Below, piece by piece: positions 3,886 through 21,145 of a DNA stretch of 64,000 nt. The stretch is from a virus (lineage: Duplodnaviria > Caudoviricetes). A program made the position numbers and the translations under genes. Under the pieces are notes generated by a model. It ran no database searches. It was not told the origin of the DNA and worked only from the letters and a program-made list of their open reading frames with translations. The stretch spans positions 64,001-128,000 of the IMG/VR virus record IMGVR_UViG_3300042090_001530; one strand, given 5' to 3'. Numbering within the stretch: position 1 is the stretch's first letter; the number at the start of each line of letters is the position of its first letter.

Positions 3886-3938
3886 GTCCACGATCGTGCG
3901 CCTGCGGACGGGTCGGGCGGGGGGCGTTTTGCCGACTT

Positions 3939-3962
3939 GTTACCCCGCGCGTTACCCCGTGC
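3939..3962 (+). repeat. Tandem 12-bp direct repeats, putative integrase arm-type sites (left arm)
   Basis: GTTACCCCGCGC (3939-3950) and GTTACCCCGTGC (3951-3962). Confidence 0.7.
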
Positions 3963-3972
3963 GCTGAACGAT

Positions 3973-4010
3973 CAAGGCCCCTGCTGCTTTACGGCAGCTC
4001 AGGGGCCTTG
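3973..4010 (-). terminator. Terminator hairpin downstream of the tRNA-derived att core
   Basis: CAAGGCCCCTG (3973-3983) pairs with CAGGGGCCTTG (4000-4010); inner GCTGC/GCAGC. Confidence 0.75.
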
Positions 4011-4017
4011 TCGAGAA

Positions 4018-4039
4018 GAGGTGGAGACGGGATTTGAAC
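4018..4039 (-). other. attP: attP core: copy of a tRNA 3' end (probably tRNA-Cys)
   Basis: Minus strand reads GTTCAAATCCCGTCTCCACCTC: T-loop, T-stem 3' strand, acceptor 3' strand and U discriminator. It matches my recollection of actinomycete tRNA-Cys(GCA). The sequence beyond 4039 is not tRNA-like. Confidence 0.8.
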
Positions 4040-4143
4040 TGTGGTACACCCGCACCTCTACCTGCATCTTTGCTGCTGAGACCACTATAGCAGGTGCCAC
4101 CGGTCGCAAAAACTGGCCAGAGGTCGCAAGGACCGACCTGCAC

Positions 4144-4167
4144 GTTTCCCCGCAGGACACCCCGTGC
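4144..4167 (+). repeat. Tandem 12-bp repeats, putative integrase arm-type sites (right arm)
   Basis: GTTTCCCCGCAG (4144-4155) and GACACCCCGTGC (4156-4167), similar to the 3939-3962 pair. Confidence 0.6.
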
Positions 4168-4193
4168 CGGGGGCGCCCTTCGCCGACGCCGAG

Positions 4194-4958
4194 TCAAGAA
4201 GCGCGCCCGTTGCGCCCGCGGTCCTCTTCGGCATCCGGGTCGGCCTTGCGGAGCCGGTCGGCCTCTGCGGCCTCCCGCGGGTAGCGGGCCGCGCGCAGCG
4301 CCTCGACCTCGTCCGCGCCGAGGATGCGCGCGGTGAACACCGCCTCCATCGCGGTCGGCGCGGCGGCCCCCGCGATCCACGCGGTGATCGCGGCCTCGGG
4401 GATGGTGCGCTCGCTGCGCGCGGCCACCTCGGCGGGGGTCATCCGCGCGTCGGCGAGTGCCTGCTCGAGGAACGCCGCCCACGGTGAGATGGCACGCCCG
4501 GCCCTGGCGTGCGGTGGCGCTGCGGCGGCGGCCGATCGGCGCGACCGGCCCTGGGCGTCGGCCAGGCGCAGTTCGAAATCGTGAAGGGTCTCGGCCTGCC
4601 GACGCAGGTATGACTGTTCGAGGTCGGCGCGCTGCTCGGCGGTGAGCATGCGGTCGGTGCGGATGCGCAGGAGCATCGGGTCGGTGCCCTGCTCGGTGCG
4701 GACGCTGCGGATCAGGCTGGCGGTGCCGGTCAGGCCGGCGGCGTCGAGGGCGGCGACGGCATCTCTGGCACGGACGGCGTGGGCGACGGCGATGACGGTT
4801 TCGGGGTCGGTGGGGGAGAAGGTGCCGCGGACCCAGCGGCTGATGGTTCCGGAGGGGAATCCGGTGGCGCGTTCGAGGTCGGCCTGGGTCATTTCGGCGT
4901 GGGTGAGGGCGGCGTTGAGCCATGACGCCCAAGTGGTGTTGGCGTCGGCGCGTGGCAT
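4194..4958 (-). CDS. Immunity repressor with two XRE-type HTH domains
   Basis: WASWLNAALTHAEMTQADLERATGFPSGTISRW and WAAFLEQALADARMTPAEVAARS...AAITAW; divergent from the Cro-like gene. Confidence 0.85.
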   Translation of the reverse strand: MPRADANTTWASWLNAALTHAEMTQADLERATGFPSGTISRWVRGTFSPTDPETVIAVAHAVRARDAVAALDAAGLTGTASLIRSVRTEQGTDPMLLRIRTDRMLTAEQRADLEQSYLRRQAETLHDFELRLADAQGRSRRSAAAAAPPHARAGRAISPWAAFLEQALADARMTPAEVAARSERTIPEAAITAWIAGAAAPTAMEAVFTARILGADEVEALRAARYPREAAEADRLRKADPDAEEDRGRNGRAS

Positions 4959-4988
4959 CAATCTTCAGCTTCCGGCGGGTACGGGATG

Positions 4989-5194
4989 GCTTCCTGTGCG
5001 AAGGAAGCCTATCGGTGTTCAGCCTACAGACGCCACCGTATGTCCGCCATAGGTGCCGCCAGACTTTCCGCAGCACTCGCATATGCACGCACGCCCCGGC
5101 AGGCCAGAGCACGTTTCGCCGCACCGGTTGCGCTTCCCATGCGAAGGGGGTAGCTTCCTTCATGTACGAAGGAATAGACCTTCTTGTAAGAAGG
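4989..5194. promoter_or_regulatory. Four 16-bp palindromic operators SCTTC-N6-GAAGG in the repressor/cro intergenic region
   Basis: GCTTCCTGTGCGAAGG 4989-5004; GCTTCCCATGCGAAGG 5132-5147; CCTTCATGTACGAAGG 5157-5172; CCTTCTTGTAAGAAGG 5179-5194. Confidence 0.8.
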
Positions 5195-17920: not shown

Positions 17921-18144
17921 ACGCGCGTCTCGCCCGCGCCCTGCGGGCCCTCTCACTGCTCGCCGTGTTCGCCGCCGCGTTCAACCTGGCGCTCGCCGAC
18001 GGCTGGCGCGCGCCGCTCGGCGCGACCGGCCTCGCAGTCGCGCTCGCCACAGTCGCCGACTGGGTGCAGCGGCCCGACCAGGCGCCCGAAGAGCCGGAAG
18101 ACCTCCCTGAACCGGAAGACGCGCAACCCGCGCGCCAGCCCTAA
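17917..18144 (+). CDS. Small two-TM membrane protein
   Basis: Two hydrophobic segments. Confidence 0.55.
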   Translation: MNARLARALRALSLLAVFAAAFNLALADGWRAPLGATGLAVALATVADWVQRPDQAPEEPEDLPEPEDAQPARQP

Positions 18145-18165
18145 CCAGAAACGGACACCCTCGCC

Positions 18166-18612
18166 ATGACCACGAACGACGTACTCCTCCCGACCGCCGA
18201 CCCGGCCAAGGCGCTCCTCGCCGAACTCACCGGGCCCGCCACAATCGAGCAGTTGCTCGGGCGGGCCGAGCGCAACGGCACCAAGCGGGCCCGGCTCGTC
18301 GCTGCAAGGATCCGGCACGACGCCGATCTCCTCGAGCAGCTGCTCGCGCAGCATGGCGAAGAGGCCGTGGCGCGCCGGAAGGTCGACCGGCTGCGCGCCC
18401 AGCTCAAGGCGGCCGAAGCCGAACTGCGCGCGAAGACCGACCCGGAGCGCAACATCGCCCGACTCGCCGGCCCCAACCAGCCGGCACCGGCCGCGACCAC
18501 CAAGGTCATGCGCGCCTGGCTGATCGAGCAGGGGCACGAAGTCTCGGACCGCCGGCGCCTGACCGCCGCACAGATCGGGCAGTACGAGGCCGCGCACCGG
18601 GGCGCCGAATGA
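18166..18612 (+). CDS. Coiled-coil protein with C-terminal Lsr2 DNA-binding domain
   Basis: MRAWLIEQGHEVSDRRRLTAAQIGQYEAAH resembles the Lsr2 C-terminal IR.WA...G..VSDRGRI. Confidence 0.8.
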   Translation: MTTNDVLLPTADPAKALLAELTGPATIEQLLGRAERNGTKRARLVAARIRHDADLLEQLLAQHGEEAVARRKVDRLRAQLKAAEAELRAKTDPERNIARLAGPNQPAPAATTKVMRAWLIEQGHEVSDRRRLTAAQIGQYEAAHRGAE

Positions 18613-19184
18613 CCACCACCTTCGATCCCGGCGACGGCCGCGACTACCTCGCCGAGATGAGCGCGCTCATCGATGGCGCGCTGCCCGACGGCGAATACAT
18701 CGCGCCCCTCGTCGCGCACGACCTGATCGAGAAGCTCAGGGCCAACGACGGCGAGCTCCTCGCCGGATGGCTCAACATGCGGGCCGAGGTCACTATGACC
18801 GCCTACATCTCGGATCGGATCAAGAACCGTCGCCAGTCGAGTCGGGAGTCTGCCGCCCGGTCCACGTTCGGCGAGGCTGCTGAGCGGTTCGCGGTGGGCG
18901 GCGACGGTGCCACGATGCGCGCCGCAGTACTGACGCGGCCGTTCGATGCCGAGTACGTCGTGAACTGTGAACTGCTGCGACGCAGGGTTGCGGAGATGAC
19001 TGGAGCCGACCACATCTTCGTCGCCAAGGAGTACGCCGAGACGAAGCAGACGGCGAGGCTCCTGGAGTCCTTCCATCGCGCGGTCGCCAAGAAAGTCGGC
19101 GACCAGAAGACGAAGGACGTTTTCACCGAGGGCCAGTACGTCGAGATGTACCGGTCGATCACCCGCCGCGAGTTGGCGGTCTAA
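18609..19184 (+). CDS. Helical hypothetical protein immediately upstream of the repeat array; candidate accessory subunit
   Basis: 191-aa coupled ORF; its stop is 7 bp before the array. Confidence 0.7.
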   Translation: MTTTFDPGDGRDYLAEMSALIDGALPDGEYIAPLVAHDLIEKLRANDGELLAGWLNMRAEVTMTAYISDRIKNRRQSSRESAARSTFGEAAERFAVGGDGATMRAAVLTRPFDAEYVVNCELLRRRVAEMTGADHIFVAKEYAETKQTARLLESFHRAVAKKVGDQKTKDVFTEGQYVEMYRSITRRELAV

Positions 19185-19191
19185 GCGCGCA

Positions 19192-19754
19192 TGACAACCC
19201 TCACCGAATCACTTCAGCGCGCCGACTACCCGAGCCATCTCCTTGCCAACGCTGTCCTTCCCTTGCCGACGACCCATTTCTACGCAGTGCAGCCCCACGC
19301 AGTGCCATCCGACCCCCGTCGACGAGTCGCCCCTGGCCGACATGTCTCCGCCCAGCGCTGCCCCTACCGACTGCCCAGCGCATCGCGTCCCGTGCCATTT
19401 CGGCTCGTCCTGCTCCTGCCCCGCGCGCACCGACTTCCCAGCCCCGCGCGCCTCGTCGCACTCCAGCCCGCATCGACCACCCGGCCCACCTCACCGTGTC
19501 GCGCCCTGCCCCCTTCCATTCCCTGCCGACAACCCAACTCCCATCGCGCATGCCGTCCCGCCGCCTACCGACTACTCAGCCCACCGAGGCTCACGTCACC
19601 CCTCTTCGACTACACAAGCCCGCACCGCACTCCCCGAACCCTCGCGACTACCCATCCCGGCCCCGAACGTGCCTTCGCACCCCCACCTGGCCCTCGCTGA
19701 CTACCCAGCCCCCGACAGGCCGACAACTCCACATCCCTCACCACGTGACGAACC
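19192..19754 (+). ncRNA. Periodic repeat array, putative guide-RNA locus: units GAC-NN-(CNC-NN)n
   Basis: YGAC heads at 19192, 19223, 19267, 19320, 19368, 19431, 19474, 19527, 19569, 19607, 19645, 19698, 19721, 19746. Most spacings are 5n+3. Each unit parses into conserved C-rich triplets alternating with variable dinucleotides. Transcribed strand not established. Confidence 0.8.
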
Positions 19755-19767
19755 GAAAGGCTCTGAC

Positions 19768-20442
19768 ATGACCTCCGTCTTCGCCAAGCACATCCCCCAG
19801 GCGTGGCCCCACCGCTACAGCGGCACGCTGCACATCGTCACCCTCGCGGGCGGCACTCCCAGCGACCCCAATGTCGCCGAAGGCTGGCTCCGCACGAAGC
19901 TCGCCGACAAGAACGACCTCATCCGCGACGCTGTCGCCGAGGTCATGGTTGAGCGCGGCATCACCGCAGAGGAAGCCGCGAAGGAACTCGACCGGCTCAA
20001 GCACTTGAACGGCTTCAAGAAGGACCCTGAGCGTGGCGGAGAGCTCTACATCGAAGGCCGGCAACTCAAAGCCGGAATTAAGGAGGCGGCGTCCGTCGCG
20101 CGCGCGGTTGGGAAGCTCCCGGACCGCTGGGGCCTGACGAAGAAGGGCATCGTCAACTTCGTTGCCGAGCACATCCAGGTCGTTGAAGACCGGCTGCACC
20201 TCGGAGTCACCGAACCCAGCGACGTGCTTCAGTCCTTCCCAAAGAACGCGCGCACCGGGCAAACCGGAATCCAATACACCGAGATCATCCTGGACGCGAA
20301 GCTCGACTTCACGATCATCAGCGACTACAAGTTCAGCGACGACGAGTGGGCGATGCTCTGGCTCACGGCTGAGCAGCAGGGCATCGGCGCGTCCCGCTCG
20401 CAGGGCTTCGGTCGATACGAGGTCGTCAGGTGGGATTCGTGA
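19768..20442 (+). CDS. Solitary Cas7/RAMP-superfamily protein (224 aa)
   Basis: RBS GAAAGG then ATG 19768; LYIEGRQLKAGIKEAA segment; C-terminal glycine-rich loop GIGASRSQGFGRYEV, the RAMP hallmark. Confidence 0.8.
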   Translation: MTSVFAKHIPQAWPHRYSGTLHIVTLAGGTPSDPNVAEGWLRTKLADKNDLIRDAVAEVMVERGITAEEAAKELDRLKHLNGFKKDPERGGELYIEGRQLKAGIKEAASVARAVGKLPDRWGLTKKGIVNFVAEHIQVVEDRLHLGVTEPSDVLQSFPKNARTGQTGIQYTEIILDAKLDFTIISDYKFSDDEWAMLWLTAEQQGIGASRSQGFGRYEVVRWDS

Positions 20443-20948
20443 CCACCCCGCAGGGCGCGGAGAGGCGCCCGGGGGGCCTAGGCGTCCCCGCCCGCGTCCG
20501 CCTCTCGCGCACCAAAGGCTTCCGGCTCCAGCAGTACGCGCCCGGCGCCATCGTCGTGCGTCGCCCCACGCGTTGGGGCAACCCGTTCACGGTTGCCGAC
20601 GCGCTCGCCGACGACCCGGCACTCACGGCGGCCCAGGCGCGGCAACGCTGCGCCGAGTTCTTCGACTTGTGGCTCGACGGGGAGATCGAACTCAGCGACC
20701 CGGCACTGGCCGAGCGCCGAGCCTGGATCCTCGAGCACATCCAGGAACTCGAAGGTCACCCGCTCGCCTGCACATGCCCCGAGGCCGTGCCAGGCGAGCC
20801 TGACTGGTGCCATGCCGTCAGCCTGATCCGCCGAAGCAACCCGCCGCAGCCGGTCGGCGAGTGCGGTGACGGCCTGTTCGCGGCCCCCGTCCGGCTGCGG
20901 CACGTCGTGCCCGTGAAGCTGCGGCGGGACGGGGCGGCGCGCCTATGA
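20439..20948 (+). CDS. DUF4326 protein
   Basis: RPTRWGNPF...L.G..LACTC....CHA. Confidence 0.85.
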   Translation: MTTPQGAERRPGGLGVPARVRLSRTKGFRLQQYAPGAIVVRRPTRWGNPFTVADALADDPALTAAQARQRCAEFFDLWLDGEIELSDPALAERRAWILEHIQELEGHPLACTCPEAVPGEPDWCHAVSLIRRSNPPQPVGECGDGLFAAPVRLRHVVPVKLRRDGAARL

Positions 20949-21145
20949 CCACCACGAAATGCCGCGACTGCCATCGCCCGATCACGGATCCGGCCTCAAG
21001 GGAACGCGGGCGGGGATCCCAGTGCTGGCAGGACCACCTCGCCACGCTCGGGACCGTGCCAGTCAAGACGCTCGGGCGCGGACGCCGCGATTGGGCCGCG
21101 GTCATGCCCGGCCAGGAGGAGCTTCAGCTCGAGGTGGCGCCGTGA
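20945..21145 (+). CDS. DUF6011-like zinc-binding protein
   Basis: CRDCHRPITDPASRERGRGSQC. Confidence 0.7.
   Translation: MTTTKCRDCHRPITDPASRERGRGSQCWQDHLATLGTVPVKTLGRGRRDWAAVMPGQEELQLEVAP

What the first reader, a model, noticed from the sequence alone, without database searches (positions are those of the whole stretch)
19192..19754. Array grammar: GAC-headed units of conserved C-N-C triplets alternating with variable NN (lengths 5n+3)
Seen: head-to-head spacings from 19267 onward are 53, 48, 63, 43, 53, 42, 38, 38, 53, 23, so 9 of 10 equal 3 mod 5. The 42-nt unit and the 44-nt unit (19223) parse with a single-base indel. Example 19431: CGAC TT CCC AG CCC CG CGC GC CTC GT CGC AC TCC AG CCC GC AT. 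Example 19645: CGAC TA CCC AT CCC GG CCC CG AAC GT GCC TT CGC AC CCC CA CCT GG CCC TC GC. Variable NN strings differ per unit: 19368 TG AG AT GT GT AT GG GT GC TG CG GC; 19474 CA GG AC AC GT GC GC CT AT CT; 19267 GA AT TA AG AG CA AG CA GA CC; 19569 TA AG AC GG AC AC TC; 19607 TA AA CG CG TC GA CT. Inference: the triplet consensus (CCC/CGC/CTC/TCC, or G-N-G if antisense) is not GGY, so this may be a distinct scaffold class. YGAC may be the processing/handle motif. Speculatively, the NN pairs read like codon positions 1-2, which would make targeting insensitive to wobble mutations.
Basis: partly seen in the sequence, partly recalled or inferred. Interest (0 to 1): 0.85.

Follow-up and report, generated by a model that had tools for sequence, protein, structure and literature searches.

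The report
Phage VIPR guide-RNA array, variant grammar
The five-base-periodic, GAC-punctuated stretch is real and is the guide-RNA array of a phage VIPR system (a Cas7-like protein plus five-base-repeat guides, first described in 2026), here in a non-standard dialect, so it is a genuine and interesting element but a member of an already reported kind.

Summary
Window 19192-19754 is non-coding, 50% C, and carries the strongest lag-5 signal of the 202-kb phage genome (z 5.6; 0 of 2000 shuffles). It parses as pentamers nn-c-C-C, interrupted every 4-12 pentamers by a 3-nt GAC, giving unit lengths of 5n+3.

The gene directly downstream (19768-20442) folds as a Cas7-type RAMP. Its third-best AlphaFold-cluster match is X1U2U4, the reference Vipr protein.

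The same grammar lies on the same strand beside homologues of this gene in about 40 related loci, down to 34% identity. Array content turns over far faster than the flanking genes.

This matches VIPR systems (2026 preprints): Vipr, an accessory gene, and guides of conserved-triplet/variable-NN pentamers that read DNA as NNx. The scan had already met VIPR on another genome; that note gave me the lead.

One relative's unit matches 16/16 by the NNx rule in rival phages' vipr genes, with the skipped base at the wobble position. No target was found for this window's own units.

The scaffold is not GGY. It fits the published alternative "NNNGG" if read antisense. The transcribed strand and the role of GAC remain open.

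Verdict: new member, possibly variant, of a known kind.

The parts
18609..19184 (+). Conserved accessory gene (191 aa, helical, no known fold) directly upstream of the array; candidate vap
   Evidence: The same family sits directly upstream of the array in 21 related loci. AF2 model has pLDDT 80. No PDB fold match (Foldseek E>1; VIA Z<=4.5). No Pfam family. No similarity to SUSP1 vap1.
19192..19222 (+). First, TGAC-headed 31-nt unit ('leader'), starting 7 nt after the stop of the upstream gene
   Evidence: 29/31 identical to the first unit of the closest relative L015, whereas most other units are unrelated.
19223..19745 (+). Array of about 12 YGAC-headed units of nn-c-C-C pentamers. Unit starts: 19223 (44 nt), 19267 (53), 19320 (48), 19368 (63), 19431 (43), 19474 (53), 19527 (42), 19569 (38), 19607 (38), 19645 (53), 19698 (23), 19721 (25). 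Candidate vrRNA guides.
   Evidence: parse; lag-5 signal, lattice occupancy; same grammar in 33 related arrays.
19368..19430 (+). Longest unit, 12 pentamers; NN string TG AG AT GT GT AT GG GT GC TG CG GC
   Evidence: No exact NNx target in IMG/VR or JGI metagenomes. In 401 genomes of the family of G001 (a Streptomyces), only 2 hits at 3 mismatches, about what chance predicts (my own estimate, about 1.4).
19474..19526 (+). 10-pentamer unit; NN string CA GG AC AC GT GC GC CT AT CT
   Evidence: Four exact NNx matches in JGI metagenome contigs form two unrelated groups (an ABC ATPase gene; a repeat-rich open frame), roughly the number I estimate chance would give for 20 fixed bases.
19569..19644 (+). 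Two 38-nt units that are the only body units shared with the closest relative (L015); one differs by a 5-nt (one-pentamer) indel
19755..19760 (+). Ribosome-binding site GAAAGG of the vipr-like gene, 7 nt before its ATG
   Evidence: Read from the sequence. The same CGAAAGG(A/C) precedes the homologues in L015 and L002.
19768..20442 (+). vipr-like gene: 224-aa single-RRM RAMP (Cas7-like) with C-terminal G-loop GIGASRSQGFG
   Evidence: Foldseek PDB: the top 50 hits are all type III, VII or III-E CRISPR effector complexes (best 6ifl_F, E 1e-6). VIA Z 10.2 to Csm3 9g9a_D. AFDB clusters: X1U2U4 (reference Vipr) ranks third, E 2e-7, TM by hit 0.65. Colinear hhalign with SUSP1 Vipr. 1384 homologues and no Pfam family.

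Best explanation
Window 19192-19754 is the guide-RNA (vrRNA) array of a VIPR system. It forms a compact module: accessory gene (18609-19184), array, then the vipr-like RAMP gene (19768-20442).

By analogy with the characterised SUSP1 and P. fulva systems (inferred here, not shown): Vipr protomers polymerise along each unit, one per pentamer. They hold the conserved part of each pentamer and expose two variable bases. The string of NN pairs then reads double-stranded DNA as NNx NNx ..., with the skipped base usually at a codon's wobble position. Binding silences genes of competing phages or prophages.

Each YGAC-headed unit of 4-12 pentamers would be one guide. The 3-nt GAC breaks the 5-nt register and so delimits neighbouring guides. 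This replaces the long structured 3' tail of type II vrRNAs.

The scaffold dialect differs from GGY: one near-invariant base per pentamer plus two weaker ones.

Which strand is the RNA is not settled. I lean about 60:40 to the minus strand, giving (G-G-n-N-N)n ending in UA-GUC, the published 'NNNGG' type. The alternative is the vipr-sense strand, giving GAC-(N-N-c-C-C)n.
For: Shown here:
1. Real, non-coding 5-nt lattice with 5n+3 punctuation.
2. The downstream protein is a Cas7-type RAMP. The reference Vipr X1U2U4 is its third-best AlphaFold-cluster match among 2.3 million clusters. Helix-1 and the G-loop align colinearly with SUSP1 Vipr.
3. The same C-rich lag-5 tract, 200-1900 nt long, lies directly upstream of homologues in most of the 48 loci examined, down to 44% identity. 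In L028, L056 and Microcystis phage Mae-JY09 (34% identity) it lies directly downstream on the same strand.
4. The family profile over 738 heads shows the lattice and the 3-nt phase shift.
5. A conserved accessory gene precedes the array in 21 loci.
6. Guide-like turnover. The closest relative (96% identical Vipr) shares only 3 of about 14 units. Only 8 homologous unit pairs exist among 218 units. In a roughly 90%-identical relative seen in RNA-library contigs, the 596-nt array is replaced by 814 unrelated letters between conserved flanks.
7. The skip rule works in this clade. A unit of L025 (TT AG CA CC TC GC AC TT) matches 16/16 as NNx at the NVAEGWLK codons of vipr in 12 other phage contigs, with the skipped base at the wobble position. 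L025's own allele and this window's allele (..LR) mismatch at the last pair. No perfect match occurred at other spacings or in 780 shuffled guides. Of the 27 exact matches in all of IMG/VR, 12 are at that vipr site.

From the literature: VIPR = Vipr + vap + pentameric vrRNA, with the 1-nt skip rule, guides against other VIPR systems, alternative repeats NNNGG/YNNNG/NNNNG, and staggered tail-less arrays (PMC13142463). One protomer binds one repeat (10.64898/2026.04.26.720927). Non-canonical triplets are reported in 10.64898/2026.10.21.760802.
Against: - No RNA evidence shows the array is transcribed, processed or bound by the protein, and the strand is unknown.
- None of the window's own units has a target above background in its own genome. 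This is expected, since the authors also see no self-targeting. None was found in related loci, IMG/VR, JGI metagenomes or 401 genomes of the family of G001.
- Support for the skip rule rests on one guide of one relative. My rough analytical estimate of the family-wise chance is about 0.002-0.02, uncorrected for base composition.
- The scaffold is looser than anything shown to work. In SUSP1, changing either G or making Y a purine abolishes silencing. The SUSP1 residues that read G1 and G2 (H17 by eye; D177 and W178 by hhalign) are A27, A208 and S209 here.
- Sequence similarity to SUSP1 Vipr alone is not significant (hhalign E 0.011, probability 4%).
- The accessory protein has no similarity to vap1.
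Confidence: 0.85

Rival explanations
1. Same VIPR system, but the guides are the vipr-sense, C-rich RNA (GAC-(NN-c-C-C)n). They would be cut out of the accessory-gene/array/vipr operon transcript. That would make this a C-based scaffold read by a re-tooled Vipr pocket, a scaffold chemistry not yet described.
For: - The array is C-rich on the vipr strand in every locus, whether upstream or downstream of vipr.
- Only 7 nt separate it from the upstream stop and about 20 nt from the vipr ATG, so vipr must be transcribed through it.
- No promoter-like or terminator-like sites were found.
- SUSP1 arrays are co-oriented with vipr and read in sense.
- The SUSP1 G-reading residues are replaced by Ala/Ala/Ser, and these positions are conserved across the clade (A208 invariant, A27 nearly so).
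- An RNA-library contig bridges accessory gene, array and vipr (weak, as it may be DNA and carries no strand).
Against: - Every vrRNA shown experimentally is G-scaffolded, and the published alternatives (NNNGG, YNNNG, NNNNG) are G-anchored.
- Read antisense, conservation falls 5' to 3' within the triplet, as in GGY.
- The antisense head GGgTAGTCGG resembles the SUSP1 repeat-tail junction GGGTAGTTAGTC.
- From general knowledge: a 0.5-1.9-kb untranslated C-rich, G-poor RNA would be a strong Rho substrate.
Confidence: 0.35
2. A C-rich untranslated leader that regulates vipr expression, for example a Rho-loading or attenuator region. The periodicity would be a by-product and there would be no guide function.
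For: C-rich, G-poor, untranslated RNA inside an operon is the classical Rho-utilisation composition (general knowledge). The array sits between two co-oriented genes.
Against: - Rho sites need no 5-nt lattice, no GAC punctuation and no 5n+3 quantisation.
- The tract also occurs downstream of vipr, where it cannot attenuate it.
- Unit content is hypervariable while the lattice is kept.
- One unit matches a rival vipr by the NNx code.
Confidence: 0.04
3. A DNA-level element (iterons of a replication origin, a partition site, or a protein-binding repeat array) in the phage's early region.
For: About 13 copies of CCGAC(T/A)(A/T)CCC at irregular spacing, extreme GC skew, and location among DNA-metabolism genes (RusA, Lsr2-like, DUF5131).
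Against: - The conserved feature is a single-base lattice rather than a double-strand recognition site. Only GAC plus one C per 5 nt is kept.
- Linkage is to the RAMP gene across loci whose other neighbours differ.
- The strict strand asymmetry is conserved with the gene's orientation.
Confidence: 0.03
4. Decayed pentanucleotide microsatellite or a proline-rich coding extension of the downstream gene, with no separate function.
For: An open frame (19243-20442) runs through the array in frame with the downstream gene. The tract is C-rich and of low complexity.
Against: - No codon periodicity or GC3 bias.
- Tandem Repeats Finder reports no repeat inside the array.
- The grammar is kept in about 40 loci across 34-96% protein identity while sequences differ.
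- Homologues start at the ATG after the array.
Confidence: 0.01

Closest known systems
VIPR systems (Viral Interference Programmable Repeat): Vipr + vap + vrRNA. Preprints 10.64898/2026.04.26.720920 (PMC13142463), 10.64898/2026.04.26.720927 and 10.64898/2026.10.15.759431.
   Same: - Phage-borne minimal locus: a small single-RRM RAMP with a G-loop, one small accessory gene, and a long flanking intergenic region made of 5-nt repeats with a conserved part and a variable part.
- Several guides per locus, with rapid guide turnover.
- NNx (1-nt skip) matching, with the skip at the wobble position.
- Guides aimed at other VIPR systems.
- No self-targets.
   Different: - The scaffold is not GGY. Only one base per pentamer is near-invariant.
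- Units abut and are separated by only a 3-nt GAC/GTC, instead of a roughly 40-60-nt structured tail.
- The G-rich reading lies antisense to vipr.
- The G1 and G2 reading residues of SUSP1 Vipr are not conserved.
- The accessory protein is unrelated to vap1.
- I could not see the figures that define the seven types, so the type is unassigned.
Alternative and 'staggered' vrRNA arrays mentioned in the VIPR supplement (NNNGG, YNNNG, NNNNG repeats; fig. S18), and non-canonical pentamers in 10.64898/2026.10.21.760802 (GAC/NN, CAC/NN, WGT/NN, TGH/NN)
   Same: Read antisense, the array is (GG-n-NN)n, which equals NNNGG/NNNNG. Guides follow one another directly, with the end of one marking the start of the next.
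   Different: The published text gives no GAC/GTC delimiter, no 5n+3 rule and no strand relative to vipr. Per the main text, small-RNA sequencing confirmed only the ribozyme-interspersed and single-guide architectures; it is shown for types II, III and V. Identity of this clade with those arrays is therefore probable but unverified.
Type III CRISPR-Cas backbone proteins (Csm3/Cmr4, Cas7 family) with crRNA
   Same: Best solved-structure matches (E 1e-6; Z 10.2). RRM core, G-loop and a filament on RNA with a fixed footprint per subunit. RNA lengths are quantised by subunit number.
   Different: - CRISPR Cas7 footprints are 6 nt and sequence-independent.
- There are no CRISPR repeats, and no Cas5, Cas6, Cas10 or Cas11 genes next to this gene.
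- The guide is non-contiguous.
TRAP-trp leader and the TMV coat-protein assembly origin (periodic RNA signals set by an oligomer's footprint)
   Same: A sequence periodicity (triplet plus 2-3-nt spacer; G every third base) that mirrors one protein subunit per repeat.
   Different: Unrelated folds and functions. This is an analogy only, from general knowledge.

Membership tests
VIPR system | Vipr protein: small RAMP with a single RRM core, G-loop and thumb, related to but outside Cas5/6/7 | tested here: met
   AF2 model pLDDT 73. Foldseek PDB top 50 hits are all type III, VII or III-E CRISPR effector complexes, E down to 1e-6. VIA Z 10.2 to Csm3. The reference Vipr X1U2U4 ranks third among 2.3 million AFDB clusters (E 2e-7, TM by hit 0.65). 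The G-loop GIGASRSQGFG fits GhGxxxxxGhG.
VIPR system | Sequence homology to an experimentally characterised Vipr (SUSP1) | tested here: inconclusive
   hhalign of the family profile against SUSP1 Vipr gives E 0.011, probability 4%, over 122 colinear columns including helix-1 and the G-loop. tblastn finds no SUSP1 hit.
VIPR system | Intergenic array of tandem 5-nt repeats (conserved scaffold plus hypervariable positions) flanking vipr | tested here: met
   Window. Related loci.
VIPR system | Scaffold consensus GGY (canonical) | tested here: not met
   Antisense triplet is G 0.8 / G 0.55-0.7 / G 0.5 (Y about 0.35); the sense triplet is c-C-C. The family definition allows 'a related consensus', including NNNGG and NNNNG, so this excludes the canonical dialect only, not the family.
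VIPR system | Adjacent accessory (vap) gene | tested here: inconclusive
   A conserved 170-270-aa helical protein precedes the array in 21 loci. It has no fold or family match and no similarity to vap1.
VIPR system | Non-contiguous targeting by the 1-nt skip (NNx) rule | tested here: inconclusive
   Met for one guide of relative L025 against vipr genes (16/16, skip at wobble, only at spacing 3). No target was found for the window's own guides.
VIPR system | vrRNAs expressed, processed and bound by Vipr | not testable with these tools
   No usable strand-specific reads. Only RNA-library contigs of a relative were available.
VIPR type II (SUSP1 / P. fulva) | About 100-nt vrRNA made of 9-16 GGYNN repeats plus an invariant structured 3' tail (pseudoknot), with vap1 | tested here: not met
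   Units are 23-63 nt, abut one another, and have only GAC between them. No Rfam or structured element. No vap1 homology.
VIPR ribozyme-interspersed arrays | Hammerhead ribozymes between guides | tested here: not met
   Rfam scan at E<=10 finds no ribozyme in 18000-21000, and the spacers are only 3 nt.
CRISPR-Cas (type III/I) | CRISPR repeat-spacer array and further cas genes (Cas5, Cas6, Cas10/Cas8, Cas11) next to the Cas7 | tested here: not met
   No direct repeats longer than the GAC head motif and no tandem repeats. Neighbours are Lsr2-like, an unknown protein, DUF4326 and DUF6011. The genome's CRISPR array and cas1 lie about 95 kb away.

The most novel reading that the evidence does not exclude
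This large actinophage/cyanophage clade uses a different scaffold chemistry. The guide would be the vipr-sense, C-rich RNA, with one C per pentamer gripped by a re-tooled Vipr pocket (Ala/Ala/Ser where SUSP1 has the G-readers His/Asp/Trp). A bare 3-nt GAC register shift would replace the structured tail and allow dozens of tail-less guides to be packed into one operon transcript.
Probability: 0.3. Interest if true: 0.7.

Novelty: new member of a known kind. Interest (0 to 1): 0.5.

Why it matters
VIPR is a months-old discovery: RNA-guided, non-contiguous DNA recognition by a putative ancestor of CRISPR RAMPs. This locus shows the system in a 202-kb temperate actinophage and in a large clade (1384 protein clusters at 90% identity). 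The clade's arrays obey a compact, easily searched grammar: GAC followed by n pentamers, each with one fixed base.

If the grammar is confirmed by RNA data, it would give three things:
1. A minimal, tail-less guide format of about 25-65 nt.
2. A looser scaffold rule, which bears on how Vipr recognises its RNA.
3. A natural anti-VIPR guide aimed at the conserved NVAEGWLK codons, with K/R escape alleles. This is a concrete phage-against-phage arms-race pair to test.

It also offers a simple annotation rule for hundreds of unannotated 'hypothetical protein plus C-rich intergenic' loci in Streptomyces prophages.

Tried and rejected
- Coding region or proline-rich extension: rejected (no period 3, flat GC by codon position).
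- Known RNA family or hammerhead: none at E<=10.
- Tandem repeats: Tandem Repeats Finder reports none inside the array.
- Similar DNA in isolated phages: none. By protein, the only isolate is Microcystis phage Mae-JY09.
- Promoter and terminator scans: nothing.
- Contiguous targets of the units in the own genome: not above lattice-preserving shuffles.
- NN-gapped targets in the own genome at target periods 2-6: not above permuted controls.
- L002 array against its Streptomyces host genome: only chance-level hits, E>0.1.
- All guides against 0.68 Mb of related loci: only the L025 anti-vipr guide stands out.
- Exact NNx patterns of four window guides in IMG/VR: 0 hits each.
- 12-NN guide in JGI metagenomes: 0 hits.
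- 12-NN guide in 401 genomes of the family of G001 (a Streptomyces), at up to 3 mismatches: 2 hits, about what chance predicts by my estimate.
- 10-NN guide (19475) in JGI metagenomes: 4 exact hits forming 2 independent groups, in an ABC ATPase gene and a repeat-rich frame. I judged these to be chance. The shared peptide is forced by the pattern itself, and the same caveat made me discard the apparent 27/27 peptide agreement.
- Fold of the accessory protein: no match.
- RNA evidence: no RNA holder is listed for the window. For relative L020, only small-share RNA-library contigs exist, which give no strand, ends or level.
- My early ideas, now dropped or kept only as analogy or minor rivals: a TRAP-like ring, G-quadruplex/i-motif, primase sites, Rho site, iterons.
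Full report
**What is there**

The window is bases 64001-128000 of a single 202,490-bp, 68.6% GC virus record. Region 19192-19754 lies between two + strand genes. It begins 7 nt after the stop of an unknown 191-aa gene (18609-19184) and ends about 14 nt before the start codon (19768) of a 224-aa gene.

It is 50% C and 19% G, with GC skew down to -0.51. The genome's other comparably skewed tracts have the look of coding sequence, or are the CRISPR/cas1 locus. GC content is flat across codon positions (0.66-0.70, against about 0.88 at third positions in neighbouring genes) and there is no period 3, so it is not coding.

**The observation**

C autocorrelation is positive only at lags 5, 10, 15 and 20. 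The mean, 0.121, exceeds all 2000 dinucleotide-preserving shuffles (z 5.6). No other 560-nt stretch of the genome has a stronger lag-5 signal.

In register from each head, the C fraction at the five lattice positions is 0.17, 0.30, 0.65, 0.58 and 0.87. The lattice is therefore nn-c-C-C. GAC is a 3-nt insertion that shifts the register, which is why unit lengths are 5n+3 and why a global Fourier peak at exactly 5 is weak.

**The neighbouring gene**

The 224-aa protein has no Pfam or PHROG family. It belongs to a large family: 1384 clusters at 90% identity, and 670 clusters at 50% identity with E<=1e-3.

Its C-terminus, GIGASRSQGFG, fits the RAMP G-loop and draws weak Cas6, Cas5 and Cmr6 hits. 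An AlphaFold2 model (pLDDT 73) finds only type III, VII and III-E CRISPR effector complexes among the top 50 Foldseek PDB hits (best E 1e-6), and Csm3 at Z 10.2 by VIA-align.

**Conservation of the pair**

I fetched 3 genome loci and 46 viral-contig loci that encode homologues.

- A C-rich tract of 200-1900 nt, with lag-5 autocorrelation of 0.09-0.28 and other lags near zero, lies directly upstream of the gene in most of them, down to 44% protein identity.
- In L028, L056 and the isolated Microcystis phage Mae-JY09 (34% identity; unannotated), the same grammar lies directly downstream of the gene, again C-rich on the gene's strand.
- Over 33 distinct arrays and 738 CGAC heads, C is about 0.8 at +3, +8 ... 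+33 and at 0, -5 ... -20. The head consensus is CCGAC(T/a)(A/t)cCC.
- Spacings are 3 mod 5 in 44% of cases (shuffles: 20% +/- 3.6%). Peaks fall at 28-53 nt, with shoulders at 5n+4.
- Within units of one length, only the fifth lattice position is strongly informative.
- A helical protein family of unknown fold precedes the array in 21 loci. Other neighbours vary.

**Turnover**

The closest relative (Vipr 96% identical) shares only the first unit and two body units out of about 14. One of the shared units differs by a whole pentamer.

Among 218 regular units from 33 arrays, only 8 homologous pairs exist. In those pairs, lattice position 5 changed 1 time in 45, while positions 1-4 changed 19-32% of the time.

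Contigs from root-metagenome RNA libraries carry a roughly 90%-identical relative. In it, the 596-nt array of L020 is replaced by 814 unrelated letters between conserved flanks. These contigs show no strand and may derive from DNA.

**What it is**

A note from this scan on another genome (e1-5347379) pointed me to VIPR systems. I checked the papers.

- PMC13142463 describes phage-borne loci made of a RAMP homologue (Vipr), an accessory gene (vap) and vrRNAs. The vrRNAs consist of 9-16 GGY/NN pentamers plus a 3' tail.
- The NN pairs read double-stranded DNA with one base skipped per pair, usually the wobble base.
- Targets are competing phages, satellites and other VIPR systems, with no self-targets.
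- There are seven types, 'or a related consensus'. Array architectures include staggered tail-less arrays and ribozyme-interspersed arrays.
- The methods list alternative repeats NNNGG, YNNNG and NNNNG.
- The structure paper shows one protomer per repeat and names the residues that read G1, G2 and Y3.
- A later preprint reports further non-canonical triplets and uses UniProt X1U2U4 as the reference Vipr.

In my AlphaFold-cluster search, X1U2U4 ranks third of 2.3 million clusters (E 2e-7, TM by hit 0.65).

The SUSP1 locus (KT454805.2) has the same layout of small genes flanked by arrays. Profile alignment to its Vipr is weak (E 0.011) but colinear through helix-1 and the G-loop. There, D177, W178 and R179 of SUSP1 align with A208, S209 and R210. 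By eye, from the shared SDP motif, H17 corresponds to A27.

**Testing the code**

The window's units have no contiguous or NN-gapped match in their own genome above lattice-preserving controls. This is what the authors also find for self-targets.

Against 0.68 Mb of related loci, one guide stands out. A unit of L025 (TT AG CA CC TC GC AC TT) matches 16/16 at spacing 3 only. The match is on the antisense strand of the vipr gene of 12 other contigs, at the codons for (K/N)VAEGWLK, with every skipped base at a wobble position and varying among targets.

L025's own vipr and this window's vipr encode ..LR (CGN), which mismatches the last pair. The window's closest relative, L015, carries the targeted LK allele.

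No perfect match occurred at spacings 2, 4, 5 or 6, nor in 780 order-shuffled guides. In all of IMG/VR the pattern has 27 exact matches. Twelve are at this vipr site. The other 15, in 8 independent groups, are unrelated places. That all 27 translate alike is forced by the pattern and means nothing.

For the window's own guides I found no credible target:
- No exact matches in IMG/VR for four guides.
- No exact match for the 12-pair guide in JGI metagenomes.
- Two 3-mismatch hits, about what chance predicts by my estimate, in 401 genomes of the family of G001.
- Two independent exact hits for a 10-pair guide, in an ABC ATPase gene and a repeat-rich frame. This is about what I estimate chance would give for 20 fixed bases.

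**Which strand**

This is unresolved.

For the G-rich minus strand:
- All vrRNAs shown experimentally are G-scaffolded, and so are the listed alternatives.
- Read antisense, conservation within the triplet falls 5' to 3', as in GGY.
- The antisense head GGgTAGTCGG resembles the SUSP1 repeat-tail junction (GGGTAGTTAGTC in two vrRNAs, GGTAGTAGCC in a third and GGCAGTAGCC in the fourth). GUC could therefore be a vestigial tail.

For the C-rich sense strand:
- The orientation relative to vipr is invariant, whether the array is upstream or downstream.
- There is no room for a separate promoter.
- SUSP1 arrays are sense and co-transcribed in layout.
- The G-reading residues are replaced.

I put it at about 60:40 for antisense.

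**Verdict**

It is a VIPR guide array in a non-GGY, tail-less, GAC-punctuated dialect. That dialect probably corresponds to the authors' NNNGG/'staggered' category, which I could not verify because the figures are not held.

This is a new member, possibly a variant, of a kind first reported in 2026. The strand, the processing, the role of GAC and the window's targets remain to be shown.

Noticed in passing
L025 tract offset 524 (array upstream of vipr at L025:5001) versus vipr genes of L015, L028, L031, L032, L034, L042, L043, L044, L046, L048, L050, L059: A natural anti-VIPR guide. Its 8 NN pairs match 16/16 by the NNx rule at the (K/N)VAEGWLK codons of rival vipr genes. Alleles ending in R (CGN), including L025's own and this window's, escape by two mismatches in the last pair.
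   Followed up: yes
L060 (Microcystis phage Mae-JY09, PP395641.1) 3920-4666 and 4669-5183: An isolated, cultured phage carries an unannotated Vipr homologue (34% identity). A GAC-punctuated nn-N-C-C array lies directly downstream on the same strand. This would be a tractable experimental system for the clade.
   Followed up: partly
G000:C1:178300-179200 (outside the window): The same phage genome carries a CRISPR array (repeat roughly GTCTGGCCCGCGAGCGCACGGGAAGATC) next to what reads as a cas1 gene, so it appears to hold both a CRISPR-Cas locus and a VIPR locus.
   Followed up: no
window 18166-18612: Lsr2-like DNA-binding domain protein, translationally coupled to the accessory gene upstream of the array (below Pfam's threshold: E 6e-5, 22.8 bits against a 26.9-bit cutoff; PHROG 'Lsr2-like' E 1e-4).
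   Followed up: no
L020:1883-2480 versus RNA-library contigs X10/X12/X13: In a root-metagenome RNA-seq study, one contig spans accessory gene, array and vipr of a roughly 90% relative. The array is replaced wholesale: 814 letters there, against 596 in L020.
   Followed up: partly
L003 (Streptacidiphilus carbonis) upstream of 4001: 286 bases of the array region read as N (masked in the collection), so this locus could not be used.
   Followed up: no
L033, L042, L049, L037, L054 upstream of vipr: Some relatives carry very long arrays (1.3-1.9 kb, 43-76 CGAC heads). If each unit is a guide, that is dozens of guides in one locus.
   Followed up: no
window 19474-19526 versus L072:1389-1417 and L075:2037-2065: The 10-pair guide matches 20/20 by NNx, in frame, in an ABC-transporter ATPase gene and in a repeat-rich open frame of unrelated metagenome contigs. 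I judged this to be chance, but it is the only exact hit of any window guide.
   Followed up: partly
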